This document shows positions 1 through 17,676 of a stretch of 64,000 bases of DNA, piece after piece. The first letter of the stretch is position 1. Each line of letters starts with the position of its first letter. Origin of the DNA: Planctomycetota bacterium (GTDB taxonomy: Bacteria; Planctomycetota; JAJSAM01; JAJVHW01); assembly GCA_021776825.1 (NCBI GenBank), contig JAJFFG010000128.1, positions 353-64,352 of the forward strand, written 5' to 3'. The translations under genes were made by a program, and so were the position numbers. The notes under the pieces were generated by a model. That model did not search any database, was not told the origin of the DNA, and worked only from the letters and a program-made list of their open reading frames with translations.

Positions 1-361
1 CGCGGCGGCGATCGCTCCTGATCCGACACTGCCGTCAACCCCTACCTCGCCGCCCAGCGGGCGTCCACTTGGCGCGTGGTAGGTAGGACCGTCGACGCGT
101 CGATCGTTCGGGACGGGGGCGCTCGAGCGTTCTGGCGATTCGGCGGAGCAACCGTCGCCATCACCGCGCGGCTGCGCCCGACGTCCCGGCGCCGTGGCTC
201 CTGAGGGCAGACCGCGCGCGCCGAGACCCTCGACGCGTTCGGCGGCTGGTCCTTCGCGGTCCAGCTGGCGCTCGCCTACCTGGTGGGAGACGCGGGGCAC
301 TCCGGTTAGCGTGAGGCGCTGCCCGCGTCACCGGACCCTTCGGCGCGGGAGGGGAGACCGC

Positions 362-5213: not shown

Positions 5214-6758
5214 ATGCGCGTCCGCTCCGTTCTGATCGTCACGCTGCTCGGGCTGCTCCTGGCGGCGGTGCTGAGCGCCGTCGTGATCAGCCTGGGGGGC
5301 AACGAGCCCGGTGACCGCGACCCGCTAGTGGGCGGGAAGGGTGGTGCGGGCTCATCGGGCGTTGGGCCCGCGGAGCCCGCACGGCGAGGGGGCTCACAGC
5401 GCGGTGGGCCGGCGGAGCCCGCTGGCGACGCGAGAACGCAACCAGAGCCGGACGAGCCACCGGCACGCGCCCCGGAGACCTTCCCCGTCGCGGGCCGCGT
5501 CACCGACGCACGCGGGCGGGGTCTCGAGCGCGCCACGGTCGAGGTCGCTGGTCAGCGAGTGACGACGGACGGCCAAGGCCGCTTCAACATCCCGGGCGTC
5601 GCCGTCGGACGCCAGACCGTCACGGCGTGGGCCAAAGGCTACCTCCTCAAGTCCGTCGACATTCGCGTGCCGGATGCCTCCCAGGAGCTGCGCCTCTCGT
5701 CGTTCCGCACCGCGAGCGGCATCGTGAGGTTCCCGGACGGCGAGCCGGCGGCTGGCGTGCGCGTGGTCGTCAGTACGCGTGTCAGAGGCGAGTCGTTCGC
5801 GGTCGAAACGACGACCGACGCGGAGGGTCGCTACACGGTCGAACGGATGCCGCCCGGACGGCTTCACGTCCAGGTCGAGTCGTTCAAGCGCGACGGTACG
5901 CCATTCGTCCGGACGCACGGAAAGCGGGCGGGGACGCACGCCGAGGTCACTCTGCGCGAGGGCACGCTCTTCCTCGGTCGCGTGCTCGCGCCAGACGGGT
6001 CACCGGTCGCCGGCGCCGCGGTGTCGGTGCTGGCGTCCCGCGACAAGTCGTCGGGCGTTGCGCACAGTGCGACGAGCGACGAAGAGGGGCACTTCGAGCT
6101 GATCGTCCGGACGGGGACGCGCTACTCGCTCCACGTCGAGACGCCGACCGACGATGTGACGGGGTGGCGCTTTCCACGCTGGTTCCGACACGAGGTGACG
6201 GGCGGCGGCGAGGCGGTGGAGGCTGTCCTCGAAGCTGGCCACGAGATCGCGGGGCGCGTCACGGGATCGATCGGGGCCGTCGCGGGACGCAAGCTCGACG
6301 TGTATCGCGTGGCGGGCAACAACCGTGGCTTCCTCACCCGCGCCACGATCCAGGCGGACGGTACGTTCCGCGTCGGTGGCCTCTGGAAGGCCAAGTACGA
6401 GCTGCGTCTCGAGAAGACGGACGACAACGACCCGTGGATCATCGTTCGCCCGCGCGTCTTCTCGACGGGGACCAACGACGCGGCCCCGAAGGTCGTCCGC
6501 GGCCGCCCGATCTCCGGCGTGCTCGTCGACGCGGACGGCGTCGCGATGGAGGCGGCGTGGCTGCAGGTCGTCTCGATGGTGAACGAGGGCACCCGCCGCG
6601 CGAAGACCGACGCCAACGGTCGCTTCACGTTCGGCCTGCTCCCACCCGGCACCTGGGAGCTACGGCTGCTGGGCCGGAAGACGGGACCGGTCGCGATCGG
6701 GAAGTTCGAAGCCGGCGTGACGGGATTGCGGGCGGAGGCACCGGCCGACTCGCCGTAG
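5214..6758 (+). CDS. Signal-anchored protein with about 4 carboxypeptidase-regulatory-like (CarboxypepD_reg) beta-sandwich domains
   Basis: TM anchor MRVRSVLIVTLLGLLLAAVL. Repeated G(R/T)V.D..G.P...A.V.V...TDA.GRF motifs. Paralogous to the three tandem genes at 12.5-17.7 kb. Confidence 0.7.
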   Translation: MRVRSVLIVTLLGLLLAAVLSAVVISLGGNEPGDRDPLVGGKGGAGSSGVGPAEPARRGGSQRGGPAEPAGDARTQPEPDEPPARAPETFPVAGRVTDARGRGLERATVEVAGQRVTTDGQGRFNIPGVAVGRQTVTAWAKGYLLKSVDIRVPDASQELRLSSFRTASGIVRFPDGEPAAGVRVVVSTRVRGESFAVETTTDAEGRYTVERMPPGRLHVQVESFKRDGTPFVRTHGKRAGTHAEVTLREGTLFLGRVLAPDGSPVAGAAVSVLASRDKSSGVAHSATSDEEGHFELIVRTGTRYSLHVETPTDDVTGWRFPRWFRHEVTGGGEAVEAVLEAGHEIAGRVTGSIGAVAGRKLDVYRVAGNNRGFLTRATIQADGTFRVGGLWKAKYELRLEKTDDNDPWIIVRPRVFSTGTNDAAPKVVRGRPISGVLVDADGVAMEAAWLQVVSMVNEGTRRAKTDANGRFTFGLLPPGTWELRLLGRKTGPVAIGKFEAGVTGLRAEAPADSP

Positions 6759-6784
6759 GGGCGGACCCCCCGGTCCGCCCCGCC
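6759..6784 (+). terminator. GC-rich hairpin immediately after the stop codon (intrinsic-terminator-like, no U tract)
   Basis: GGGGCGGACCCCCCGGTCCGCCCC is a perfect 9-bp stem with a 6-nt loop, starting 1 nt after the TAG. Confidence 0.4.
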
Positions 6785-6804
6785 GACACGCGCCGCTCGG
6801 TCCA

Positions 6805-7025
6805 GGCAGGTGGATGGCGGACGGCGAGCGACGCGGGCGATCCGCACGGCGCCCGGCGAGAGACATCGCCACGCGACACCACGGCTGTAACGCCGTCGAC
6901 CGGGAGCCATCCGGATCGCCGGGAACGAACGACGAGCGCCGTCCACCCCATCGCCCGCGCGCACCCCAGCGGGCGGGGGGATCAGGAGATCCGCCCGTAC
7001 GAGGGCACTCGCATCGTCGACGGGG
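6805..7025. repeat. Intergenic direct repeat copy A (about 210 bp), ending in a GC hairpin
   Basis: Shares blocks gatccgcacNgcgccNggcgagag.catcgcc.cgcga / aacgccgtcgaccgg.agcc / cgcgcaccccagcgggcgggg with copy B. Confidence 0.6.
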
Positions 7026-7094
7026 GTGTCGTAGGGGTGGGTCTCCTGACCCACCCGCGCCGACGCGGGACCGCGCGGGCGATGTTGGTGGCTG

Positions 7095-7300
7095 GCGCAC
7101 GCGAGCGATGACCGCGATCCGCACCGCGCCGGGCGAGAGCCATCGCCCCGCGATCGATCAGCGCGCACATGGCGTCACGGCAGCAACGCCGTCGACCGGT
7201 AGCCGGCCGGATCACCGCGCCCGTCCGCCAAGCGCCGTCGGCCCCAACCGCCCGAGCGCACCCCAGCGGGCGGGGCGGACCAGGGGGTCCGCCCCTACGG
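7095..7300. repeat. Intergenic direct repeat copy B (about 205 bp, roughly 75-80% identical to copy A), ending in hairpin GGGGCGGACCAGGGGGTCCGCCCC
   Basis: By-eye alignment with 6805-7025. Confidence 0.6.
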
Positions 7301-7738
7301 CGCCGTTGACGAAGCGGACCCGTCGGAACGGAGGAGACCAAGCGCCTCCGGATCCCCACCCGGGGCGGGGCGGTTGCGCGTGAGCGCAAGCGCCGTGACG
7401 CGGGGAATGTGTGCGCGGAGGTCCTCGACCGGCGCCGATGGCCCTCGTCAGACGCGTGACGAGACCGAGCACACACCAGACAGCAACAGAGGGCGCGGCG
7501 ATTGCCGCATGTCCAGAGCTGCGTCACCAACCTGCCGCCCTGCAATCGCCGTGACCACCAACGAATCCGCTCAAGCGTACCGCTGTACTAGCCCGATAGG
7601 ACGGTCAGCCCCGGGGGAAGTGCCCCCGGGGATCCCCCACGGGGGGGGAAGAGCCCCCCCGCTGCCGAGGAGCCGACCATCCAGATCCACGTCGACCCGA
7701 AGGGCCCCACTCCTCCGAGTGAGCAGATCGCCGATCAG

Positions 7739-8071
7739 ATGCGATTCGCCGTCTCGAGTGGCCGCCTGACCGCGGGCGACAAGCTCCCCTCCGTGCGGAA
7801 GCTCGCCGCACAGGCTCTCGTGAACCCCAACACCGTCGCTCGCGCGTATCGAGAACTCGAGCGCGAGGGCACGGTGGAAACGCGTCCCGGATCCGGCGTC
7901 TTCGTCGCCCGGGATGCCTCGCGTCGCTGCCAACGGCAGACACGCAATCTTCTCTCGGAGCGAATTGGCCGTGCCGTCGAGGAAGCCCTCGCGGCCGGCC
8001 TCGCTCCCCACGAGATCGAAGAGATGGTCGGTCAGCTGCTCCACCGCGCCCCCCAGGAGTCGATCCGATGA
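7739..8071 (+). CDS. GntR-family (YtrA-subfamily-like) winged-helix transcriptional regulator. Annotated from the only in-frame ATG; the true N-terminus probably lies near 7620-7676
   Basis: KLPSVRKLAAQALVNPNTVARAYRELEREGTVETRPGSGVFV is a GntR HTH. The upstream in-frame sequence EEPTIQIHVDPKGPTPPSEQIADQ is the expected helix-1 but has no ATG/GTG/TTG back to the stop at 7589. The stop overlaps the ABC ATPase start (ATGA). Confidence 0.75.
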   Translation: MRFAVSSGRLTAGDKLPSVRKLAAQALVNPNTVARAYRELEREGTVETRPGSGVFVARDASRRCQRQTRNLLSERIGRAVEEALAAGLAPHEIEEMVGQLLHRAPQESIR

Positions 8072-9003
8072 CGCATGACCACGCGGACCCCATTGTCGTC
8101 CGCGCCCTCTCCCACCGTTTCGGCCGTCAGGAGATCCTGAAGGACGTGGACCTGCGCGTGCCTCGCGGCAGCGTGACCGCGCTCCTGGGTCGCAACGGCG
8201 AGGGCAAGACGACGCTCCTCCGACTCATGATCGGCTGGCTGAACGCCGCGCCCGGTCACATCCAGGTGCTGGGACTCGATCCCGCGCGCCGCGGCCCGGA
8301 CGTTCGGCGTCAGGTCGGCTACGTGCCGGACTCGCTCGAGCTGCCGAAGTGGATGCGCGTGAACGACTGGTTCCGCTTCCTCGAGCCGTTCTATCCCACG
8401 TGGAACCGGAGCGAGGAGGCGCGCCTTCTCGGCGCGCTCGACCTCGACGGGAACGCCAAGGTCACGACCCTCTCGAAGGGTCAGCGCGCCAAGCACGCCC
8501 TGATCGCCGCGCTCGCCCACGAGCCGCAGCTGCTGCTCATGGACGAGCCGTTCTCCGGCCTCGACCCGATCGTGCGGCACGAGGTTCTCTCTGCCGTCCT
8601 CGGCCATCTCAAGGACGAGGGCCGCACCGTGGTGGTCGTGTCGCACTCCATCACGGACGTCGAGCGCATCGCCGATCGCGTCGTGCTGCTCGAACAGGGC
8701 CGCGTTCGTCTGGACGCCGACTTCGAGGACCTGCAGCGCCATGCAGTGCGCCTCGCGGTCACGCTGTGGGACCCGTATGTGATCTGGTCGCCCCCGGGGC
8801 ACCCGGCCTCGGTGCGCGAGAACGAGGACGTGACGCTCACGTACATCGACTTCGACCAGCGCTACGAAGAGGCCCTCCGTAACGACCCGAGCGTGGCCTC
8901 CGTCCGCCGCGTCTCCCGCGACCTGAACGACGTCTTCCGCGCCGCCGTGGCGAACGAGTCGGCCACGCCGGCAGAGGAGGAAGCTCCGTGCGCTGCTTCC
9001 TAA
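8068..9003 (+). CDS. ABC transporter ATP-binding protein (ABC-2 / YtrB-like)
   Basis: Walker A GRNGEGKTT, signature LSKGQRAK, Walker B LLLMDEPFSGLD, H-loop VVSHS. Confidence 0.9.
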   Translation: MTHDHADPIVVRALSHRFGRQEILKDVDLRVPRGSVTALLGRNGEGKTTLLRLMIGWLNAAPGHIQVLGLDPARRGPDVRRQVGYVPDSLELPKWMRVNDWFRFLEPFYPTWNRSEEARLLGALDLDGNAKVTTLSKGQRAKHALIAALAHEPQLLLMDEPFSGLDPIVRHEVLSAVLGHLKDEGRTVVVVSHSITDVERIADRVVLLEQGRVRLDADFEDLQRHAVRLAVTLWDPYVIWSPPGHPASVRENEDVTLTYIDFDQRYEEALRNDPSVASVRRVSRDLNDVFRAAVANESATPAEEEAPCAAS

Positions 9004-10703
9004 CCCTGCTGCAGAAGGAGTGGCGCGACGCCCGCGCAATCACGCTGGCGTCGGCGATCCTGGCGCCCCTCGCGCTCGTCGCCGCGGAGCACTGGTTTCT
9101 TCGGGAGCAGTACGCCGAGTTCGCGGCGGTCGTGCTGGTGCCCGGCCTGATCGGACTGTTCGCCGCGGTCATCGCGTCGGACGTGATCGCTGCCGACGTC
9201 TCGACGCGCCGCTCCCATTCGATGGCCGCGCTGCCGACCAGCGCCCGCACGCTCTGGCTCTCCAAAGTGGTCGCGCTCGTCGCGTTGACGCTCCTCTTCG
9301 GCGCGTGGGTGCATCTGTTCGAGATTCTGCACTACGGGTTCGCTCAGTCGTGGGACCGCGCCTCCGCGTTCACCGCGGGCATCCCGGCCGGTCTCACGAA
9401 CCTGGTCATCGCCGTTCCCATCGTCGCGGCTGTGCTCCTGTTCTCGACACTCCTCGAACGCGGGTTCGCCTGCGTATGCGGCGGCGTGGTCCTCATCGTC
9501 GGCATCGCCGCCTCGGCGTTCCTGGTGGACTGGCACGCTCTCGAGTTCGTCCCGACCGAGACGGAGGCGCGCTGGGTCGGCGTGCTGCTGGCCGCGGTGT
9601 TCTTGGGCGGCTCTGCCATGGCGTTCATCCGCGGACCGGTGCATGTGGCGTCACTCCTGCGGCGCTCGGTGCTGGCGTTTGCTTTGCCCCTGGCCGTGCT
9701 CGTACCGACCACCGTCGCCACCGCCGCGGTGCTCGTCGAACGGCGCAGTGTCGAACCGGGTGACCCGGACGTCACCCTGAAGCTGATCGAGACGTCGGAC
9801 GACGGCGAGCATCTCATCCTGAACGCCTGGAGGCGCCGCCGAGACGCCCAGCACCGCACGTGGGTTCTGCACGTCCCGACCGGACGCATCACACAGCTAC
9901 CGCACACGAATCTCACTCTGGACCAGCGCATCCGCTGGACGGACGAGGGCCACCTCAGAATGTGGCAGCATGAGCGCCCCAGTCGCTTCAGTCGGAAGCT
10001 CGAACCGACGCTCCACCGCACGATCGATCTGGCGACGGGCCAGGTGGTGCGAACGCGCTCCTACGATCAGGTGGTCGCCGACGAAGGGAACAACCCGTTC
10101 GCCTACGACACCGGATGGGGACGGATCGAGCGTCGCCCCGAGAAGCAGATCATCCAGTGGCACGGTCACGACCTCGATGTCGAGGTCCAGCAGCGCGTTC
10201 CGGTGCAGCTGTCGCGCAAGCCCGGCTTCGCCGTGCACACGCAGTCCGCTGCGCGGGGCGCCGCGACGCAAGTGGTGCTTCACGACCTGCGTGCCGGGAC
10301 ATCCAAGGTCGTCGTCGAGCGGGCCGGCACCTGCAACACGTACTTCTCGCCGAAGGGGGAGTACCTGCGGGTCCTCTCGAGCTCGCGCTGCGTGATCGTG
10401 CGTGTGCGCGACGGCAACGTCGCGTGGGACGGCGCGCGCTCCGGGTGCTTCCCGCACTGGGGCGGCGGCTCCGTCGATCGGTTCGCGCTGCTCTTCGGAA
10501 GTGACGTCCCGACGCGAGTCCTCGACCTCGAAACCGGCCAGGAACGCGAGCTCGCCGAGAACCCCAATTCCTACGGCGCACCTTGGGACCTCGTCCACGC
10601 CCGTGCGTCGGGCGAGATCGTCCAGATCCACAGCGACGGCTCGATCCGGCTCCACGAGTCGGACGGCGATGAGCGAACCCTCTACAGCCCGAGAAAGGAG
10701 TAG
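8988..10703 (+). CDS. ABC-2-type permease-like 7-TM protein with a roughly 320-aa C-terminal periplasmic beta-propeller-like domain
   Basis: GTG 8988 lies 6 nt after a GAGGAGG Shine-Dalgarno. Seven hydrophobic helices, then a W/G/D-rich repeat domain. Paralog of the next gene. Confidence 0.7.
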   Translation: MRCFLTLLQKEWRDARAITLASAILAPLALVAAEHWFLREQYAEFAAVVLVPGLIGLFAAVIASDVIAADVSTRRSHSMAALPTSARTLWLSKVVALVALTLLFGAWVHLFEILHYGFAQSWDRASAFTAGIPAGLTNLVIAVPIVAAVLLFSTLLERGFACVCGGVVLIVGIAASAFLVDWHALEFVPTETEARWVGVLLAAVFLGGSAMAFIRGPVHVASLLRRSVLAFALPLAVLVPTTVATAAVLVERRSVEPGDPDVTLKLIETSDDGEHLILNAWRRRRDAQHRTWVLHVPTGRITQLPHTNLTLDQRIRWTDEGHLRMWQHERPSRFSRKLEPTLHRTIDLATGQVVRTRSYDQVVADEGNNPFAYDTGWGRIERRPEKQIIQWHGHDLDVEVQQRVPVQLSRKPGFAVHTQSAARGAATQVVLHDLRAGTSKVVVERAGTCNTYFSPKGEYLRVLSSSRCVIVRVRDGNVAWDGARSGCFPHWGGGSVDRFALLFGSDVPTRVLDLETGQERELAENPNSYGAPWDLVHARASGEIVQIHSDGSIRLHESDGDERTLYSPRKE

Positions 10704-10705
10704 AC

Positions 10706-12475
10706 ATGCGCGCGTTCTCGGCCCTGATCGACAAGGAGTGGCGCGCCGCGCGCCCGATCGTCTTCGCGTCGATGGTGCTCGCCGTGCTCTTCACGCTCGG
10801 CGTCAACCACTGGGCATTCCACTGGCAAGAGCCGGACCTCACCGGACGCTGGATCGTCCCCGGCCTCACCGCGCTGTTCACGGCAGTGATCGCCGCCGAC
10901 CTCGTCTCTGCGGAGCGCGGCGCCGGCCGTGACCGAGCGTTCGCCACGCTGCCGGTGCGCGGACGCACTCTGTGGGCCGCCAAGGTCGCGTTTCTGGTCG
11001 CGGCCGTGACGACGTTCGCCTCGTTCGCCATCCTCTTGCAGCTCGTCGGCCACGCATTTCTCGCGCAGCCGCAGATCGCGCTCGAGGTGTTCCCCGCGGC
11101 CGCAGACGGCATCCCGTTCATCCCCGTGATCATCGGCGTGGGCGGCACCGTGCTGTTCTTCTCGACCCTCGTGCCGCGCGGGTTCGCGGCCGCCGTCGCC
11201 GGGATGGTCGTCGTCGCCGCCGCCGTGTGGGCCCCGTTCCAGCCCGACTGGACCGCCTACGACCTCCAGCCGTCGAAGGCGATCCTGCTCACGGCATCCG
11301 GCGTGCTCGGGACCCTGCTCGCGATCGGCTCGCTGAACGTGTTCGCCCGCGGACCGATCCACTCCGCCGGCTGGGTCCGGCGCTCGTGCCTAGCCCTGAT
11401 CATCCCCGTCGCGGTGCTCGGCGTCGCCGGCACGGCAACCGCCGCGACGCTCTCGTCATGGATGGCGATGCCGCTCGGCGAGACCCCGATCGCCGCGATG
11501 GTCGCGTCCCCGGACGGGAAGCTCTTGGCGGTCACGTTGGCTCGCCAGGGTCGGCGCCAGCGACACGTCTGGATCGTGCCCACCGATGGCGGCGCCGCCG
11601 TCGCGGTCGATGGACACCGCGTCCTGTTCGACACGGACGCGTGGCAGCCGGACGGCACGCTGCGGGTGTGGACGCACCAGGTGAGTGTCAATGGTCACCA
11701 CTATCAGGATCCGCGCCCGGTGCTGCGCCAAGACGTCAACCCGCGAACGGGCATTCCCACGCGCAGCCTCACCGCGAACAAGCACGTCGAGGAGACCAAC
11801 CGCCACGCCGGGCCGCGGAAGCTCATCTACGGTGTCCGCGACTGGACGGACCGGGGCGTCTGGGGCCAGCTGCTTCCGGATCGGACAACCCGCGAGTACC
11901 GGATCGTCGCCAAGCATCTGAATCTCGACGTGACGGTGCGGAGCGTGGCCCATGCGCGCATCTCGGCCCGACCGGGCTGCCTGCTGTTCACGCCGGAACT
12001 CGGAGTACTCCTGCACCGCGATCTGCGGACTGGAGAGGACCTGCTCCGCATCGAGGGCACCGACTACATCTCGGCGACCACGTCGGGTGACGGGCGGCTG
12101 CTCCACGTGTTCGAACAATTTCCCGACGGTCGCAAGGTCGTCCGCATCCTGGACGCCGACACGGGCGCCCGAGTCGCGGGACCGTTCGGGGCCGTGAAGT
12201 CCGGAGACGACCCGCGGTCGGGTGTCCGCCCTTATCAGCTCGGACCCGATGTCAGTGACTGGGTGCTGCTGTACGACACGGCCGGCGGTCGCGGCAAGCT
12301 GCTCAACGTGCGCACGAAGGCCGAGCGGCCGTGGACATGGACCTCAGGCGGGAACGGTTGGCCGCCACCGATCGCCTGCACCGTCCCCGGCCTCGGGACC
12401 GCGTTCTCCGTGGACGGCCGCATCGAGATCCGCGACGACCGTGGCGAGCTCGTCCGCACGCTGCTCACCGACTGA
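10706..12475 (+). CDS. Paralogous ABC-2-type permease-like 7-TM protein with C-terminal periplasmic beta-propeller-like domain
   Basis: AAGGAG-tagac-ATG. N-terminus MRAFSALIDKEWRAARPI is parallel to MRCFLTLLQKEWRDARAI of the preceding gene. Confidence 0.7.
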   Translation: MRAFSALIDKEWRAARPIVFASMVLAVLFTLGVNHWAFHWQEPDLTGRWIVPGLTALFTAVIAADLVSAERGAGRDRAFATLPVRGRTLWAAKVAFLVAAVTTFASFAILLQLVGHAFLAQPQIALEVFPAAADGIPFIPVIIGVGGTVLFFSTLVPRGFAAAVAGMVVVAAAVWAPFQPDWTAYDLQPSKAILLTASGVLGTLLAIGSLNVFARGPIHSAGWVRRSCLALIIPVAVLGVAGTATAATLSSWMAMPLGETPIAAMVASPDGKLLAVTLARQGRRQRHVWIVPTDGGAAVAVDGHRVLFDTDAWQPDGTLRVWTHQVSVNGHHYQDPRPVLRQDVNPRTGIPTRSLTANKHVEETNRHAGPRKLIYGVRDWTDRGVWGQLLPDRTTREYRIVAKHLNLDVTVRSVAHARISARPGCLLFTPELGVLLHRDLRTGEDLLRIEGTDYISATTSGDGRLLHVFEQFPDGRKVVRILDADTGARVAGPFGAVKSGDDPRSGVRPYQLGPDVSDWVLLYDTAGGRGKLLNVRTKAERPWTWTSGGNGWPPPIACTVPGLGTAFSVDGRIEIRDDRGELVRTLLTD

Positions 12476-12533
12476 CGTCGTCTCCTGGCGGTGTCTCTCT
12501 TGACCGGGAGCGCCGCGGTATCCTCGACCCGCG

Positions 12534-14171
12534 ATGCGTCGCGCGCTCCCCCTCGTCATCCTGCTGCTTCTCGCTGGGATCGGAGTCTGGACCCTGCTCG
12601 GCCCCGACGACACGGGGCCGCCGCCACGCGACGCGCCGGCGACGACCGAGCGCGCCGAGCCTCCCGAACGACGCCGAGCGCAGCCCGATCCGGAACCGCC
12701 GCCGGAGCCTCCCCCACCTCCGAGCGAGCCAGGTGAGTGGACGGTCCGCGTGCTGGGACGCGACGACGTCCCGGTCCCCGGCGCCACCGTCGTCGTCGGC
12801 GTGGCGCGGTCAGACCTGGACCATCGCAACGCGAACGACGAGCGAGTCACCACCGGGCTGACCGACTCCGACGGAGCGCTGTCGTTCGAGGCGCCGGCGG
12901 ACGAGCGTGAGTACGAGGCCGCGACCGGTCTCGACCCGCAGGTGCGGGCGCCCTTCGCCAGCGGAGTGGCGACGCTGCGTGTGCCGCGCGGCGTGCCGAT
13001 GTCGATCCGTGTCGTCGACTCCGAGACCGGAGAGATCGTCGCGACCGACATCGATCTCGTGCGGACATCGTTCATCGGCACCGTGCTGGCGCGTCAGACA
13101 CTCCCCCGACGTGGCTCGGAGACGTACGTCGGCGCCACCACGGCCGAGCCCGGTGGGGAGATCGCGCTGAAGCTGCGGCCAGACGCCCAGGCGGGATACG
13201 TCGTTGCGTCGAATACCTCCCACTTCGCGAACCTGAGCATTCGGACGCGCGCGCTGCGCGTCACCGTACCGATCCGGCCCCAGGCGAAGCTGCGCGTGCG
13301 CGTTCTCGACCACCTCGATCAGCCCGTCGAGGGTGCCGAGATCAAGAGGGTGCAGATCTCGGGGACGCCGCATCCGTACCGCGCCGCCGCAACGGACGCC
13401 CGCGGCGAGACGGGGCTCCGTGACGTCATGTTCATCCGCGGCAACCGCATTCGTGTGCGCGCCGCAAAGGGGAGGCTCTGGGCGTGGTCTGCTCCGTTCC
13501 GTCCCGCACACAACGACGAGTCGCTGCTCCTCACGGTCCGCCTTCCCGAGGTGGAGCCGGTCGACTTCGGCGGCCCGAGCAACGGCATGATCGGGATCGG
13601 GGGCGGAGCCGGCCCGGACGCACGCACGGTCGCCGAGAAGGACCTGACCTCCATCACGCTCCGCGTCGTCGCCGCCGACGGTACGCGCCCCGAGAACGTG
13701 CGCGTCTGGATCAAGGCCGAGGGCCAACGACAACTCCGCCACGCCCGCACGGACGAGAACGGTGACGCGGTGTTCGAGCGGCTGCGGCCCGGCACGTACC
13801 ACGCCGCATCGGCCGATCCGGGCATGGTGCCGGCGTCGGGCACCGTCACGACAGAGCCCGGCGAGCACGCGTCGCTGCTGCTTCGCGAGACCGCAGGCCG
13901 CATGCTGAGCGTGCTCGTGCTCGACAAGGACGGCAACCCCTTCTCCCACGCACGGGTCTACGTCGGTGTCGACGTCCACGGGCAGCGTATCGCCGTCCAG
14001 CGCGTCGTCGATGGCGTCCAGGACGTGCCGCTGCTCGCCGACGCAGACGGGCGGGTGATCCTGACGAACGCCCCAGAGGGCACGCTCGTCGTCAACGCCA
14101 GCTACGGAGCTCTGAACGAGGGCACAGAGTCGGACGCCCAGGACGTCGAGATCACGCTCGGCGGCGACTGA
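12534..14171 (+). CDS. Secreted/signal-anchored CarboxypepD_reg-like repeat protein, tandem paralog 1
   Basis: Anchor MRRALPLVILLLLAGIGVW. Pro-rich linker, then repeated beta-sandwich motifs. C-terminus VDGVQDVPLLADADGRVILTNAPEGTLVVNASYG is shared with paralogs 2 and 3. Confidence 0.7.
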   Translation: MRRALPLVILLLLAGIGVWTLLGPDDTGPPPRDAPATTERAEPPERRRAQPDPEPPPEPPPPPSEPGEWTVRVLGRDDVPVPGATVVVGVARSDLDHRNANDERVTTGLTDSDGALSFEAPADEREYEAATGLDPQVRAPFASGVATLRVPRGVPMSIRVVDSETGEIVATDIDLVRTSFIGTVLARQTLPRRGSETYVGATTAEPGGEIALKLRPDAQAGYVVASNTSHFANLSIRTRALRVTVPIRPQAKLRVRVLDHLDQPVEGAEIKRVQISGTPHPYRAAATDARGETGLRDVMFIRGNRIRVRAAKGRLWAWSAPFRPAHNDESLLLTVRLPEVEPVDFGGPSNGMIGIGGGAGPDARTVAEKDLTSITLRVVAADGTRPENVRVWIKAEGQRQLRHARTDENGDAVFERLRPGTYHAASADPGMVPASGTVTTEPGEHASLLLRETAGRMLSVLVLDKDGNPFSHARVYVGVDVHGQRIAVQRVVDGVQDVPLLADADGRVILTNAPEGTLVVNASYGALNEGTESDAQDVEITLGGD

Positions 14172-14200
14172 GCGGGCGCGACGGCGTACGCTCGGGACGG

Positions 14201-15850
14201 ATGCGACGCCTGACTCTCCCGCTGCTGCTTGTGCTCCTCGCGGTGATCGTGGCGCTCGTGATGTGCGAGCCGACAGCGGTGGAGCCGGTCGACGGGCCGG
14301 CCGAGCGAGCCAGCGAAGCCGAGATCGATCCGAGCCCGGACGAACTACCTGGGCGACGTGAGCGCGCTCGCGCGCCGCGGGTTGCCACAGCCAACCGCGC
14401 GCCGGCGGCCGTCGACGAGACCGCGACCGGACAGTGGCGCATCCGCGTGCTCGGCCGCGACGACGCCCCGATCGCTGGCGTACGGGTCGAGGTCACGGAG
14501 GAGACCCCCGAGGAACAGGGGGCGGTCCTCGAGATGCAGTCGACCCACCGGACGGACGCCAACGGAGTCACGTACGCCGACCCACTGCCCGCCGGCAGCA
14601 CGGGGACCGTGCGTTGCGACAACCTCGAGACCGCGGCGGTGCCGTACGAGCCGGAGACCGTGCTCCGGATCGAAGACGCGTTGCCCGTGACCGTCGCGCC
14701 CGTCGACGGCTGGTCGGGCGCGCCCCTCCCGGTCGACGTCCTGCTCCTCGGTTCGGCCACTCCGCTCGCCCTCGAACGCGATGGCGCGCTTCGACGCGTG
14801 GCGGCGTCGCCCGTGCGGCCCGGTCGCACGGGCCACCTGGCGTTCCGCATCGAAGCCGCACCCGAACGGTCCATCCCGTGGACCACCGTCGCATGGGGCG
14901 AGATCAGCGCACTCGCGGACGAGCTGCACGTGACGGCGGCCGTGCCACGGGAGGTGCAGCTCACCGTGCGTGTCACCGACTCGAGCGATCTACCGGTGGC
15001 GGGCGCGGAGCTCGCCGACGTGCACCGAGGCGGCTGGATCGACGACGTGATGGCCGGCGTGGCGAGCGACGCGGCCGGAGTCCTCGTCGTGCGTCGGACG
15101 CCGTTCTTTCGCGGGGACCGCATCGCCGTCGGTGTGTTCCTCGCCAATCGCTACGCGGTCTCGAACGAGATCGTGCTGCGCGAGGTCGATCAGGCGATCA
15201 GGCTCCACGCCCACGTCCCCGACGACGCGGACCCGAAGGTCTCCGATCACAACGAGGTCGACGTCGAGAGCCCCGACTACCGGAGGCCGTCGCGGTGGCT
15301 CGATGAGGCCGGAGCCGCATCACTGCACGTCCAGGTGAGGACGCGTCGGGGAGAGCGCGCGTGGATACCCGTCTCGGTCCTGACGGACGGCCAGCCGCGC
15401 GATCGCGGGTGGCGTGTCTGGACGGATGCTCACGGCGTCGCCGAGTTCCGTGGACTCCCGCCAGGACGCTGCAAGGTCATCGTGACCGACCCCGGGCTGA
15501 CGTGCTCGGTCACGGACGTCACGCTCGGCACCGGAGAAGCGCGGCGACTCGAGGTGCGCGATCCCGCGGGTCGACCACTCACCATCCGTGTCGTCGACCA
15601 CGATGGCGTCGCGCTCCCGTTTGCGGAGCTCCGCCTCTCCCGCGACGTTGCGGTGGGGTTCCCCAACGTGCGTGTCGCGCACGTGGTCGACGGGGTCCAA
15701 CACCTTCCCATCGTGACGGACCAGCATGGCGTGCTGCGCCTGACGGACGCTCCGCCGGGCGAGATCGAGATCATGGCTCGCTACGGGCATCGCTCTGCCA
15801 CCGTCGACGGGGCAGCGTCGGAGATCGTCGTGCGGCTGCCCGAGCGCTGA
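14201..15850 (+). CDS. CarboxypepD_reg-like repeat protein, tandem paralog 2
   Basis: MRRLTLPLLLVLLAVIVALVMCEP. C-terminus VDGVQHLPIVTDQHGVLRLTDAPPGEIEIMARYGHRS. Confidence 0.7.
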   Translation: MRRLTLPLLLVLLAVIVALVMCEPTAVEPVDGPAERASEAEIDPSPDELPGRRERARAPRVATANRAPAAVDETATGQWRIRVLGRDDAPIAGVRVEVTEETPEEQGAVLEMQSTHRTDANGVTYADPLPAGSTGTVRCDNLETAAVPYEPETVLRIEDALPVTVAPVDGWSGAPLPVDVLLLGSATPLALERDGALRRVAASPVRPGRTGHLAFRIEAAPERSIPWTTVAWGEISALADELHVTAAVPREVQLTVRVTDSSDLPVAGAELADVHRGGWIDDVMAGVASDAAGVLVVRRTPFFRGDRIAVGVFLANRYAVSNEIVLREVDQAIRLHAHVPDDADPKVSDHNEVDVESPDYRRPSRWLDEAGAASLHVQVRTRRGERAWIPVSVLTDGQPRDRGWRVWTDAHGVAEFRGLPPGRCKVIVTDPGLTCSVTDVTLGTGEARRLEVRDPAGRPLTIRVVDHDGVALPFAELRLSRDVAVGFPNVRVAHVVDGVQHLPIVTDQHGVLRLTDAPPGEIEIMARYGHRSATVDGAASEIVVRLPER

Positions 15851-15929
15851 GTGGCGAGGCTCCGGCGTCCTGCCCAATGCCCCGCCGAGAACGCGCGTCG
15901 GTCGCGCGGGCTGAAGCGCCCCCAACGAA

Positions 15930-16060
15930 GGCGCGGAGCCGGACGCGGGGGCGTCGAGATCACGCTCGGCGGCGACGAAGCGGGCGCGGGGCCGTACGCT
16001 CGGGACCGATGCGACGCCTGACTCTTCCGCTGCTGCTCGTGCTCCTCGCGGTCATCGCCG
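15930..16060. repeat. Duplication junction: relic of the 3' end of paralog 1 plus the paralog 2 leader, repeated upstream of paralog 3
   Basis: ...gtcgagatcacgctcggcggcgac[t/g]a[g/a]cgggcgcg...gtacgctcgggac.gatgcgacgcctgactct.ccgctgctgct.gtgctcctcgcggt is present at both 14140-14260 and 15945-16060. Confidence 0.75.
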
Positions 16061-17676
16061 CACTCGTCACGTGCGAGCCGACCCCGGTGGACAACCAGCG
16101 CGAACCGGCAGGCGAGGCTCACGCGTCAGCCGTCACTCCGGACCGTGCCGAACGGAATCGGGTCGCTGTCGCGGAGCAGCCGGCATCGTCTTCCCCCGCA
16201 CGGGACACCGACACGGAGGACAACGGCCCGGAACCGTGGCGCATCCGCATCGTCGGCCCGCACGGCGACCCGCTGTCTGGGGTCATCGTGGACGCATTCG
16301 CGCTGAAGCCGACCGACGATGGAGAGTTCATCGAGGACCAGATCGCGCGTCGCGCCACGAACTCCGAGGGTATCGCGTACGCGGCCGCTCTCCCGGCGGG
16401 CATGACGGGCGTCGTCCGCTGTAACTGGCTTGGCATGCTGACGGCGCCCTACGAGCGCGAGACGCTCCTGCGGGTCGAGGGGGCCCTTCGCGTGACGGTG
16501 GCGCCGGTGGACGCCAGCACCGGCCGGGCCGTCGACGCCGACATCGTCCTGGTGCAACGCGACTTCCCGCACGAACGCGGGGAGATCGAGACGACGCTCG
16601 CACGAGAGGGGGCACTGCGCGTGCTCGCGGCGGCGCCGCTCCAGGCGGGCGGTCATGCGAGTCTGACGTTCCGCGTCACGCCGACCGCCGGGTATCTCAC
16701 CGGGCACGGCGTCTGGGTGTCTGAGGAACTCAGTGCCCTCGCCGAGGAGCTCCACATCAGCGCTCCGATCCGACGGGAGGTGCAGCTCAGAGCACGTGTC
16801 TCGGACGACGACGGATCGGCTGTTGCCGGCGCGCGCCTCCGCGGCGTACTGCGCAATGGCGTGGCAATCCACTTCCTCGCCGCTGAGACCGGCGCTGACG
16901 GCGTCCTGGTCGTCCGGGGGCTCTCCTTCTTCCGCGGCGACCGGTTCGCGGTCGTCGCCGGGACCGATGAGCGCTGGGCGCAGTCGGAGACCTTCCTGCT
17001 CACCGACCCGGACCAGGAGTTCGACCTTCCGATTCGACTGCCAGAGACCTCGCCGGAGGCGTCGTGGCGGCCGCCGGAAAACGAGGACTTCTACGGGCCC
17101 GGTTGCGGGAGGCGCGGCGGGAACTGGCTCGGCGAGGACGACGACGCCGTGTTGCGCGTCCTCGCGCTCACACGCCGCGGGGAGCGCGCGGGCGTCGAGG
17201 TGGTGGTCGTCACGTCCGGGCAACCTCCCGATCGGCGCTGGAGGGTCGACACGGGCGCCGACGGCCTGGCGCTCTTCCCGAGACTCCCGCCGGGGCAGTT
17301 CGACATCATCGTCTCCGACCCGGGGATCACGGCGTCGCACACGCGGATCGACCTCGGCCCGGGCGAGCAACGCCATCTCACGCTGCGAGAGCCGGCCGGC
17401 CGGCCGCGGACGATCCGTGTCCTCGACAACGACGGCGCAGCCATCCCGTTCGCGCGGCTATCTCTCTCGCGGGAGGTTCACGAGATCGGCACCGTCCGTG
17501 TGGCCCACCTCGTCGACGGAGTGCAGCATCTGCCCATCGTGACGGACGCGCTCGGCGTCCTCCGCCTCACGAACGCGCCCCCCGGCGAGCTCCGCGTGGT
17601 GGCCCGCTACGGATCTCGCTCATCCGAGGCGACGAGCGAAGCGAGCGAGATCGTCATCCGGCTGCCCGAACGCTGA
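16009..17676 (+). CDS. CarboxypepD_reg-like repeat protein, tandem paralog 3
   Basis: ATG at 16009 (internal to ORF 15361..17676). MRRLTLPLLLVLLAVIAALVTCEP. C-terminus VDGVQHLPIVTDALGVLRLTNAPPGELRVVARYGSRS. Confidence 0.7.
   Translation: MRRLTLPLLLVLLAVIAALVTCEPTPVDNQREPAGEAHASAVTPDRAERNRVAVAEQPASSSPARDTDTEDNGPEPWRIRIVGPHGDPLSGVIVDAFALKPTDDGEFIEDQIARRATNSEGIAYAAALPAGMTGVVRCNWLGMLTAPYERETLLRVEGALRVTVAPVDASTGRAVDADIVLVQRDFPHERGEIETTLAREGALRVLAAAPLQAGGHASLTFRVTPTAGYLTGHGVWVSEELSALAEELHISAPIRREVQLRARVSDDDGSAVAGARLRGVLRNGVAIHFLAAETGADGVLVVRGLSFFRGDRFAVVAGTDERWAQSETFLLTDPDQEFDLPIRLPETSPEASWRPPENEDFYGPGCGRRGGNWLGEDDDAVLRVLALTRRGERAGVEVVVVTSGQPPDRRWRVDTGADGLALFPRLPPGQFDIIVSDPGITASHTRIDLGPGEQRHLTLREPAGRPRTIRVLDNDGAAIPFARLSLSREVHEIGTVRVAHLVDGVQHLPIVTDALGVLRLTNAPPGELRVVARYGSRSSEATSEASEIVIRLPER

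What the first reader, a model, noticed from the sequence alone, without database searches (positions are those of the whole stretch)
7739..17676. Ten-kb operon: YtrA-type GntR, ABC ATPase, two 7-TM permeases with periplasmic beta-propellers, and three tandemly duplicated secreted CarboxypepD_reg-like proteins
The genes are contiguous, with ATGA overlap, a 16-nt overlap, and 2-58 nt gaps. The two permease-like proteins are paralogs (MRCFLTLLQKEWRDARAI versus MRAFSALIDKEWRAARPI). Each ends in a roughly 320-aa W/G/D-rich periplasmic domain, which is atypical for ABC-2 permeases. The three secreted proteins share anchors and a conserved C-terminal VDGVQ(H/D)(L/V)P...L(T/R)(D/N)APPGE...YG motif. 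A fourth family member lies at 5214-6758. The layout resembles a YtrA-controlled export/remodelling module for a family of beta-sandwich envelope proteins. I know of no characterised function for it.
Basis: partly seen in the sequence, partly recalled or inferred. Interest (0 to 1): 0.6.

Follow-up and report, generated by a model that had tools for sequence, protein, structure and literature searches.

The report
Repressor-controlled ABC transporter with periplasmic propellers
This is a conserved, uncharacterised gene cassette of Planctomycetota: a small repressor, an ATPase and two membrane subunits that each carry a propeller-shaped domain outside the cell membrane; the three neighbouring beta-sandwich protein genes are a recent local add-on, not part of the conserved machine.

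Summary
The region encodes, on one strand:
- a YtrA-type GntR repressor;
- one DrrA/PmtA-like ABC ATPase;
- two paralogous 7-TM permeases;
- three paralogous N-terminally anchored proteins with a CarboxypepD_reg domain.

A confident AlphaFold2 model of permease 1 (pLDDT 92) shows seven TM helices. The TM part is closest to NosY and PmtCD, which are type V (ABC-2) exporters. The C-terminal 305 residues form a beta-propeller. Pfam does not recognise the propeller, but a family profile matches TolB (6e-11). The positive-inside rule places it outside the cytoplasm.

About 205 sequence clusters share this architecture. The few that carry an organism label are Planctomycetota MAGs, and the only names given are "hypothetical protein". 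In every related locus with enough flank, GntR and the ATPase sit directly upstream of one to three propeller-permeases. A covarying dyad element precedes GntR.

The beta-sandwich genes are not conserved partners. Three of four syntenic relatives with readable downstream flank lack them, one has a single copy, and the window's three copies carry a duplication scar.

The core is therefore a new variant of the YtrA-regulated ABC-2 exporter. The proposed link to beta-sandwich proteins is weakly supported. The substrate is unknown.

The parts
7570..7606 (+). Conserved dyad element (CTCAAGCGT-N5-TGTACTAGCCCGATAGGACGGTC). It is the predicted promoter and YtrA operator of the cassette.
   Evidence: Present upstream of the GntR gene in all 13 loci with enough flank, including distant ones. 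The half-sites covary: CACCGT..ACGGTG, GGGTGT..ACACCC, GACCGT..ACGGTC. It occurs once in the 64-kb window. Binding has not been tested.
7607..7678 (+). 5' leader with a GC hairpin (CCCCGGGGG/CCCCCGGGG), G8 and C7 runs, and a GAGGAG Shine-Dalgarno motif.
   Evidence: A hairpin at the same place, with a different sequence, is seen in five relatives. The z-score is significant only for the window copy.
7679..8071 (+). YtrA-type GntR repressor, 130 aa from an ATC start (110 aa if it starts at the ATG at 7739).
   Evidence: PF00392 E 4e-17. The Rv1152-family and PmtR models are the best small-regulator hits, both below cutoff. Relatives are 129-132 aa and start with ATG or GTG at the position of the ATC.
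8068..9003 (+). ABC ATPase of the DrrA/PmtA-like subfamily, 311 aa.
   Evidence: PF00005 E 5e-24. PmtA model E 6e-45 and DrrA E 5e-37, both below cutoff. Motifs: Walker A GRNGEGKT, signature LSKGQ, Walker B LLLMDE, H-loop SH.
8988..10703 (+). Permease 1, 571 aa. Residues 1-255 form seven TM helices (ABC-2/type V fold plus an extra TM7). Residues 262-566 form an extracytoplasmic beta-propeller.
   Evidence: AlphaFold2 pLDDT 92.4, pTM 0.86. Foldseek propeller hits at E about 1e-7. The TM-only model is closest to NosY and PmtCD. Positive-inside rule holds in 80 of 80 members. TolB profile hit 6e-11.
10706..12475 (+). Permease 2, 589 aa, a paralogue of permease 1 with the same architecture.
   Evidence: 30% identity over the full length; seven hydrophobic segments. 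Position-2 permeases form their own clade in syntenic genomes.
12534..14171 (+). sec1, 545 aa: N-terminal hydrophobic anchor, Pro-rich linker, then several beta-sandwich domains.
   Evidence: PF13620 E 3e-16, MG4 E 8e-10. One N-terminal hydrophobic segment.
14201..15850 (+). sec2, 549 aa, a paralogue of sec1 and sec3.
   Evidence: PF13620 E 1e-15. 45% identical to sec3 and 29% to sec1.
15868..16008 (+). Duplication scar: a degenerate copy of the sec1 3' end plus the sec1-sec2 spacer.
   Evidence: The aligned block 15868-16091 is 80% identical to 14059-14283. It includes a stop-less remnant ..VEITLGGD.
16009..17676 (+). sec3, 555 aa, a tandem duplicate of sec2.
   Evidence: PF13620 E 8e-13. The start is supported by homology to sec2 and by the shared upstream CGTACGCTCGGGAC.
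5214..6758 (+). Upstream anchored protein with four CarboxypepD_reg repeats. It is a neighbour, not part of the cassette and not a sec paralogue.
   Evidence: PF13620 E 2e-47 in four stretches. No BLASTP hit to sec1-3. hhalign aligns one domain only. Homologues sit upstream of GntR in L004 and L007.

Best explanation
The conserved unit is a four-gene cassette at 7570-12475. It consists of a promoter/operator, a YtrA-type GntR repressor, one DrrA/PmtA-like ATPase, and two paralogous type V (ABC-2) permeases.

Shown:
- Each permease has the six-helix ABC-2 core plus a seventh helix.
- That helix carries a C-terminal beta-propeller of probably seven blades, related to TolB, to the extracytoplasmic side.

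Inferred mechanism:
- Two ATPase copies and the perm1/perm2 heterodimer form an ATP-driven exporter or extruder of the PmtCD, YtrBCD or NosFY kind.
- It removes an amphipathic or envelope-associated substrate from the inner membrane. Alternatively, it transmits ATP-driven movement to the two periplasmic propellers, which act as a binding or hand-off platform.
- The repressor binds the dyad element over its own promoter. It is released when the transporter or its substrate signals demand.

The three sec genes are a lineage-specific addition. One gene was present in the ancestor shared with L007 and was then duplicated twice here. They may be read through from the cassette, but they are not an obligatory component.
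For: Family:
- 205 representative clusters at E <= 1e-3, most of 550-620 aa.
- The few labelled loci and proteins are Planctomycetota MAGs, and the only names given are 'hypothetical protein'.

Structure:
- Full-length model pLDDT 92.4.
- All top Foldseek hits for the C-terminal part are propellers.
- Family profile against PDB sequences gives TolB at 6e-11.
- The TM-only model is closest to NosY, PmtCD, ABCG2 and CcmB, with TM-scores 0.45-0.53.

Topology: mean K+R is 11.8 on the predicted inside against 3.3 outside, in 80 of 80 members.

Synteny and coupling:
- GntR plus ATPase lie directly upstream in 13 of 13 distinct loci with enough flank.
- The 16-nt ATPase/perm1 overlap is conserved in five loci.
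- Position-1 and position-2 permeases form separate clades.
- The covarying dyad element occurs once per locus.

sec genes:
- Absent in syntenic L002, L003 and L004; single copy in L007.
- Duplication scar.
- No Shine-Dalgarno motif before sec1-3, the L007 sec gene or g0 (0 of 5), against 19 of 21 core genes.

Precedents for YtrA-controlled ABC modules: MbrRAB (bioRxiv 10.64898/2026.02.18.706565), ytrGABCDEF (PMC12772383), PmtCD (PMC7527219, PMC9974410).
Against: - No substrate, transcript or binding data exist.
- The TM-domain fold matches are weak by E-value (0.035-0.1).
- Pfam ABC-2 models score below their gathering thresholds on the window proteins (17-19 bits against 27).
- A sec-like gene directly after perm2 in L007, and a TIG-domain protein after the permease in L009, leave room for a real link to beta-sandwich proteins.
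- No terminator separates perm2 from sec1.
- The repressor gene lacks a canonical start codon. In this genome it may be truncated and inactive.
Confidence: 0.55

Rival explanations
1. All seven genes form one functional operon, and the propeller-bearing ABC complex exports, anchors or remodels the three anchored beta-sandwich proteins.
For: - Same strand, with gaps of 58, 29 and 158 nt and no terminator-like site between the genes.
- The closest relative, L007, has a full-length sec homologue directly after perm2.
- L009 has a TIG (Ig-like) protein after its permease.
- TolB-type propellers are protein-binding platforms (established knowledge).
Against: - sec genes are absent in syntenic L002, L003 and L004 and in distant L012/L013.
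- sec1-3 have their own Sec-type hydrophobic N-termini, so they do not need an ABC exporter.
- There is no dyad element or Shine-Dalgarno motif before them.
- Beta-sandwich repeat proteins occur elsewhere in the neighbourhood (g0), so adjacency alone is weak evidence.
Confidence: 0.15
2. The complex is mainly a sensor. The propellers detect a periplasmic ligand or envelope damage, and the ATPase captures the YtrA repressor to induce the cassette, as MbrA does with MbrR. Transport is secondary.
For: - The same gene logic (YtrA repressor, ATPase, permease) occurs in MbrRAB, where the ATPase sequesters the repressor (bioRxiv 10.64898/2026.02.18.706565).
- The large extracytoplasmic domains resemble the sensing domains of BceB-type permeases (established knowledge).
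- L012 places BlaI/BlaR1-type envelope signalling genes next to the cassette.
Against: - The dyad element occurs only once in each locus examined, so no regulon beyond the cassette is visible.
- The MbrR mechanism has been shown only in Bacillota.
- The ATPase-repressor contact was not tested here.
Confidence: 0.15
3. The cassette is decaying or deregulated in this genome. The repressor lost its start codon (ATG to ATC) and is truncated, so the transporter is constitutive or the locus is on its way to loss.
For: There is no ATG, GTG or TTG between the upstream stop and 7739. Relatives have ATG or GTG at the ATC position. Gene callers report 110 aa.
Against: - ATC is an allowed, if rare, bacterial start codon, and a GAGGAG lies 6 nt upstream.
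- The 20 upstream codons remain open and conserved.
- All other genes are intact and keep strong codon bias.
Confidence: 0.1

Closest known systems
PmtR-PmtABCD of Staphylococcus aureus (phenol-soluble modulin exporter)
   Same: - A YtrA-type GntR repressor is encoded with a DrrA-like ATPase and ABC-2 permeases.
- The PmtA and PmtR models are among the best NCBIfam hits.
- PmtCD is among the top structural matches of the TM domain.
   Different: - Pmt has two ATPases and two six-TM permeases without an extracytoplasmic propeller.
- All NCBIfam scores here are far below the equivalog cutoffs.
- Pmt is from a Gram-positive host and its peptide substrate is known.
YtrABCDEF (Bacillus subtilis), MbrRAB (streptococci) and ClnRAB (C. 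difficile): YtrA-repressor/ABC modules
   Same: A small autoregulating YtrA repressor that binds a palindrome upstream of its own ABC operon. These systems have envelope or antimicrobial-peptide themes (PMC12772383; bioRxiv 10.64898/2026.02.18.706565; bioRxiv 10.1101/347286).
   Different: Their permeases have no seventh helix and no propeller. They occur in Bacillota, not Planctomycetota. The operator sequences are unrelated.
NosDFY (ABC-2 machine that powers a periplasmic partner for copper delivery)
   Same: NosY is the best structural match of the TM domain. It is a precedent for a type V ABC transporter that works through a large periplasmic domain.
   Different: NosD is a separate beta-helix protein, not a fused propeller. 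No nos genes or copper chaperone are adjacent. Sequence identity is 15-19%.
TolB (periplasmic beta-propeller of the Tol-Pal system)
   Same: It is the best sequence-profile match of the C-terminal domain (6e-11). It is a periplasmic propeller with SPDG-like blade motifs.
   Different: TolB is a soluble six-bladed protein with an N-terminal alpha/beta domain. Here the propeller has about 26 strands (probably seven blades) and is fused to a transporter. PF07676 does not hit it.
MacB/FtsEX/LolCDE/BceAB mechanotransmission ABC systems
   Same: These are ABC permeases with large extracytoplasmic domains whose movement is driven by cytoplasmic ATP hydrolysis.
   Different: They have a different TM fold (type VII, four TM helices, or ten in BceB). 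Their extracytoplasmic domain sits between TM helices rather than at the C-terminus. This comparison was not tested by structure here and rests on established knowledge.

Membership tests
YtrA subfamily of GntR regulators | N-terminal GntR winged helix-turn-helix | tested here: met
   PF00392 E 4.2e-17.
YtrA subfamily of GntR regulators | Very short C-terminal region (about 50 aa; total length about 120-130 aa) | tested here: met
   130 aa from the ATC at 7679. Relatives are 129-132 aa. The PmtR model covers positions 26-118 of 125.
YtrA subfamily of GntR regulators | Encoded with ABC transporter genes and binds a palindrome at its own promoter | tested here: inconclusive
   Adjacency is met in every locus. 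A covarying dyad element is found. Binding cannot be tested with these tools.
ABC-2 / type V ABC exporter | Nucleotide-binding subunit with Walker A, signature, Walker B and H-loop motifs | tested here: met
   Motifs found. PF00005 E 4.7e-24.
ABC-2 / type V ABC exporter | Permease matches a Pfam ABC-2 membrane model above its gathering score | tested here: not met
   ABC2_membrane_4 scores 17.3 and 18.8 bits against a cutoff of 27. 27 of 80 family members match weakly. Of the distant relatives, P0151 passes PF12679 (32.9 against 27.2); P0138 falls just short at 26.8.
ABC-2 / type V ABC exporter | TM fold like solved type V exporters, with the N-terminus in the cytoplasm | tested here: met
   Top Foldseek hits are NosY, PmtCD, ABCG2 and CcmB, with TM-scores 0.45-0.53 and probabilities of 0.94-1.00 for those families, but E only 0.035-0.1. 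Positive-inside rule holds in 80 of 80 members.
ABC-2 / type V ABC exporter | ATP-dependent export of a substrate | not testable with these tools
   Needs biochemistry.
TolB/PD40-type beta-propeller | Closed all-beta propeller fold | tested here: met
   About 26 strands in residues 262-566 at high confidence. 492 Foldseek matches at E <= 0.001, and all 50 listed are propellers or propeller-containing assemblies.
TolB/PD40-type beta-propeller | PD40 repeat model PF07676 | tested here: not met
   No hit at E <= 0.1 on the window permeases. 1 of 80 family members hits.
TolB/PD40-type beta-propeller | Profile-level sequence similarity to TolB propellers | tested here: met
   TolB chains at E 6e-11 to 1e-6.
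CarboxypepD_reg-like beta-sandwich proteins (sec1-3) | PF13620 above its gathering score | tested here: met
   60.0, 58.2 and 49.1 bits against a cutoff of 32.3.
PmtRABCD / MbrRAB repressor-extruder modules | Same subunit composition and equivalog-level similarity | tested here: not met
   PmtA model 153.6 bits against a cutoff of 350. PmtR model 40.6 against 200. The cassette has one ATPase gene, not two, and the permeases carry an extra helix and a propeller.
PmtRABCD / MbrRAB repressor-extruder modules | Repressor controlled by contact with the ATPase or by the substrate | not tested
   Would need interaction assays or complex modelling.
Anti-phage defence systems (PADLOC) | Any subunit matching a defence model beyond generic ATPase similarity | tested here: not met
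   Only the ABC ATPase hits, and only generic ATPase models.

The most novel reading that the evidence does not exclude
The propeller-permease pair is a new kind of ATP-driven periplasmic machine in Planctomycetota. A type V ABC motor moves two fused propellers. The propellers handle envelope proteins, such as the anchored beta-sandwich proteins, or another envelope component. This would be analogous in logic to NosDFY, Lol or Lpt but built from different parts.
Probability: 0.12. Interest if true: 0.75.

Novelty: new variant of a known kind. Interest (0 to 1): 0.45.

Why it matters
YtrA-controlled ABC-2 modules have been studied almost entirely in Gram-positive bacteria, where they deal with membrane-active peptides and cell-wall stress.

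This work defines a compact family of about 205 sequence clusters. The few labelled members are Planctomycetota, and the only names given are 'hypothetical protein'. In this family the permease has gained a seventh helix and a periplasmic propeller that Pfam does not cover. A recognisable operator precedes the cassette.

The result gives:
- a concrete annotation for these genes;
- a testable regulatory site;
- a candidate system for studying how type V ABC transporters couple to periplasmic domains in a phylum whose envelope biology is poorly understood.

It also shows that the neighbouring beta-sandwich genes should not be annotated as part of the system.

Tried and rejected
- The word-index protein searches were of little use. 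The two permease searches returned essentially only the query; the sec search found only the window's own sec2 plus a few generic CarboxypepD_reg repeat proteins. The full HMMER representative search was needed.
A 5-sequence alignment worked.
- The metagenome scan gave mostly short contigs.
- Rfam and tRNA scans of the window found nothing.
- The sigma-70 promoter scan found nothing, and the terminator scan found only intragenic chance matches.
- TRF found nothing in the g0-gntR gap.
- tblastx of that gap gave only compositional noise.
- PADLOC gave no defence system.
- Single-sequence PDB searches were empty.
- A lipoprotein reading of sec2, sec3 and the L007 homologue (conserved Cys after the hydrophobic segment: VMC, VTC, VTC) was considered. 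It was not adopted because position -1 is atypical and sec1 has no Cys.
Full report
**What is in the sequence**

The window has about 70% G+C. Between 7.6 and 17.7 kb the + strand carries seven contiguous genes with strong third-position GC bias:

| Gene | Coordinates |
|---|---|
| GntR regulator | ORF from 7739; see below for the real start |
| ABC ATPase | 8068-9003 |
| perm1 | 8988-10703 (GTG start) |
| perm2 | 10706-12475 |
| sec1 | 12534-14171 |
| sec2 | 14201-15850 |
| sec3 | 16009-17676 |

The exception is the sec2-sec3 gap, which is 158 nt when sec3 starts at the homology-supported ATG.

Pfam and NCBIfam give the following:
- PF00392 for the regulator.
- PF00005, with all NBD motifs, for the ATPase.
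- Only sub-threshold ABC-2 membrane hits on the N-terminal 180 residues of the permeases.
- Nothing on the C-terminal 320 residues of the permeases.
- One clear CarboxypepD_reg domain in each of sec1-3, plus weaker Ig-like and macroglobulin-like hits.

**The permeases**

perm1 and perm2 are 30% identical end to end. Their C-terminal domains alone align at E 2e-7. Hydropathy gives seven segments in each.

A profile of the two proteins, searched with HMMER against 1.84 billion representative proteins, found 205 clusters at E <= 1e-3 and 47 at E <= 1e-30. Nearly all complete members are 550-620 aa, so the whole architecture is conserved. Scanning 80 members against Pfam again recognised only weak ABC-2 membrane signals (27 of 80). 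The C-terminal domain was essentially unrecognised: PD40 in 1 of 80 and WD40 in 1 of 80.

With those 80 sequences as the alignment, AlphaFold2 gave a confident model of perm1 (mean pLDDT 92.4, pTM 0.86). It has seven long helices in residues 2-253 and about 26 beta-strands in residues 262-566.
- Foldseek against the PDB returned 492 matches at E <= 0.001. All 50 listed are propellers or propeller-containing assemblies: S9 peptidase propellers, eIF2A, WD40 proteins, TolB and YncE.
- The family profile hits TolB propeller sequences at 6e-11.
- About 305 residues and 26-27 strands suggest seven blades. I could not check this on coordinates.
- A separate model of residues 1-257 (pLDDT 91.9) is closest to NosY, PmtCD, ABCG2 and CcmB. 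TM-scores are 0.45-0.53 and the probabilities for those families are 0.94-1.00, but E-values are only 0.035-0.1. This is the type V (ABC-2) exporter fold with one extra helix.
- Basic residues are concentrated on the predicted cytoplasmic loops in 80 of 80 members (11.8 against 3.3 on average). The N-terminus is therefore inside and the propeller is outside the cytoplasmic membrane.

**The conserved unit**

I fetched related loci by exact protein look-up and by pattern scans and compared them with the window proteins by tblastn.

- In every distinct locus with enough upstream flank (L002, L003, L004, L006, L007, L008, L009, L010, L012 (L013 is a near-identical copy of L012), L015, L017, L018, L019), a 129-132-aa GntR and the ATPase lie directly upstream of the propeller-permease.
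- Most loci have two permeases. L004 has one, and L020 has three in a row.
- The 16-nt ATPase/perm1 overlap with a GTG start recurs in L002, L008, L010, L012 and L019.
- Within the syntenic group, first-position and second-position permeases form separate clades. The duplication is therefore old and the order is fixed, which fits a heterodimer.
- The labelled genomes are Planctomycetota MAGs, and the only names attached to members are 'hypothetical protein'.

**Regulatory region**

The GntR reading frame is open for 49 codons upstream of the ATG at 7739 but contains no ATG, GTG or TTG. Relatives start with ATG or GTG exactly where the window has ATC (7679), 6 nt after GAGGAG. The 20 codons in between are conserved. 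I therefore take 7679 as the probable start. The alternative is an N-terminally truncated repressor.

About 75 nt further upstream lies a roughly 37-nt element, CTCAAGCGT-N5-TGTACTAGCCCGATAGGACGGTC (7570-7606).
- It is found before the GntR gene in all 13 loci, including distant ones.
- Its half-sites change in a compensatory way: CACCGT..ACGGTG, GGGTGT..ACACCC, GACCGT..ACGGTC.
- It occurs once in the 64-kb window and once in each locus where the pattern scan finds it.
- This is what an autoregulatory YtrA operator overlapping a promoter should look like. Binding is inferred, not shown.

**The sec genes**

The region is syntenic in five Planctomycetota relatives: the thioesterase and HAD genes on the opposite strand (seen in L002, L003, L004 and L007) and, variably, the 1023-aa BamB-like protein, the 695-aa protein and the multihaem cytochrome.
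- In L002, L003 and L004 the last permease abuts the thioesterase gene with no room for another gene.
- In L007, the closest relative by ATPase and GntR identity, a single full-length sec homologue (about 30% identical) sits there.
- L006 is cut at the permease.
- In distant L012/L013 the next genes are BlaI, a BlaR1-type M56 peptidase and a PDZ protein.
- In L009 the next gene is a TIG-domain protein.

In the window, sec2 and sec3 are 45% identical, and sec1 is 29-31% identical to each. A block running from the sec2-sec3 spacer into the start of sec3 (15868-16091) is 80% identical to the sec1 3' end, the sec1-sec2 spacer and the start of sec2 (14059-14283). The spacer part, 15868-16008, holds the remnant of the sec1 3' end and is a clear tandem-duplication scar.

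sec1-3, the L007 homologue and g0 all lack Shine-Dalgarno-like motifs, whereas 19 of 21 core genes have one. The gene at 5214-6758 has four strong PF13620 repeats. It matches the sec family in one domain only.

The sec genes are therefore a lineage-specific, recently expanded neighbour. Read-through transcription from the cassette is possible, since no terminator-like site lies between them, but it is untested.

**Mechanism**

Shown: the parts, their folds, the membrane topology, and the conservation of the four-gene core and of the dyad element.

Inferred:
- An ATPase2-perm1-perm2 type V ABC complex either extrudes an amphipathic or envelope-associated substrate, or drives the two periplasmic propellers as a binding and hand-off platform.
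- Expression is autorepressed by the YtrA regulator.
- The known YtrA-controlled ABC modules deal with membrane-active peptides or cell-wall stress (PmtCD, PMC7527219 and PMC9974410; ytrGABCDEF, PMC12772383). In MbrRAB the repressor is captured by the ATPase (bioRxiv 10.64898/2026.02.18.706565).
- NosDFY shows that the NosY-type fold can power a periplasmic partner (structures listed).
- The substrate here is unknown.

**Rivals**

- A mainly sensory role (0.15).
- A deregulated cassette with a truncated repressor (0.10).

**Comparison and novelty**

The cassette works like a YtrA-regulated ABC-2 exporter. It is not a member of any equivalog family: the PmtA, PmtR, DrrA and GldA models all score far below their cutoffs. 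The permease Pfam test is not met on the window proteins.

I did not find the fusion of a type V permease to a C-terminal periplasmic propeller through a seventh helix described anywhere. Two full-text searches bearing on it turned up nothing relevant: the stricter one returned no papers, and the 15 listed of the 88 from the looser one did not describe such a fusion.

I rate it a new variant of a known kind, of moderate interest.

Noticed in passing
window 7676-7741: The GntR gene has ATC where five relatives have ATG or GTG. A good Shine-Dalgarno motif lies 6 nt upstream. This is either a rare ATC start or a truncated repressor that begins at the ATG at 7739.
   Followed up: partly
window 7570-7606, and upstream of GntR in L002-L019: A conserved dyad element with covarying half-sites lies upstream of every GntR gene of the family. 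In L010, L017, L018 and L019 it ends 3-9 nt before the start codon, which suggests leaderless transcripts. In the syntenic clade it is followed by a 40-76-nt leader.
   Followed up: partly
window 7607-7678: The leader has a strong GC hairpin plus G8 and C7 homopolymer runs. Hairpins with different sequences sit at the same place in five relatives, but only the window copy has a significant z-score.
   Followed up: partly
window 6751-7302: An element of about 550 bp is bounded by 34-nt inverted repeats that are 97% complementary. Each arm is itself a GC palindrome, GGGGCGGACC-N4-GGTCCGCCCC, and the first arm overlaps the stop codon of the gene at 5214-6758. The element contains internal direct repeats of 33-71 nt (79-91% identical) spaced about 280-300 bp apart. 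It may be a MITE-like insertion or a duplicated terminator region. It accounts for much of why the g0-gntR gap is about 920 nt here and about 125 nt in L007.
   Followed up: partly
window 14185-14198 and 15993-16006: An identical CGTACGCTCGGGAC lies directly upstream of sec2 and sec3. The upstream region and signal-peptide-coding region are more similar (80%) than the gene bodies (65-68% where alignable). This suggests gene conversion or selection on the 5' region.
   Followed up: partly
L020 1-4481: Three propeller-permease genes lie in a row on one contig. Copy number in the family therefore ranges from one (L004) to three.
   Followed up: no
L012 9889-12077: In a distant family member the cassette is followed, on the same strand, by BlaI, a BlaR1-type M56 peptidase and a PDZ protein. 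It is preceded by Rce1-like and PrsW proteases. This neighbourhood has an envelope-stress flavour.
   Followed up: no
window 194-3265, 20566-22653 and 25275-28208: A 1023-aa BamB/PQQ_2-like protein, a 695-aa protein with no Pfam hit, and a 977-aa multihaem cytochrome with LVIVD repeats flank the locus. Each has homologues in several related Planctomycetota MAGs.
   Followed up: no
L002 8720-8745: A run of about 21 C interrupts the start of the GntR gene in the 2-Mb MAG contig. It is probably an assembly or long-read artefact, and it explains why that gene was called at 110 aa.
   Followed up: no
window sec2 and sec3, and the L007 sec homologue, N-termini: A Cys directly after the hydrophobic segment is conserved in three of the four sec proteins (LVMC, LVTC, VVTC). 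This hints at lipoprotein processing with an atypical lipobox. sec1 has no Cys.
   Followed up: no
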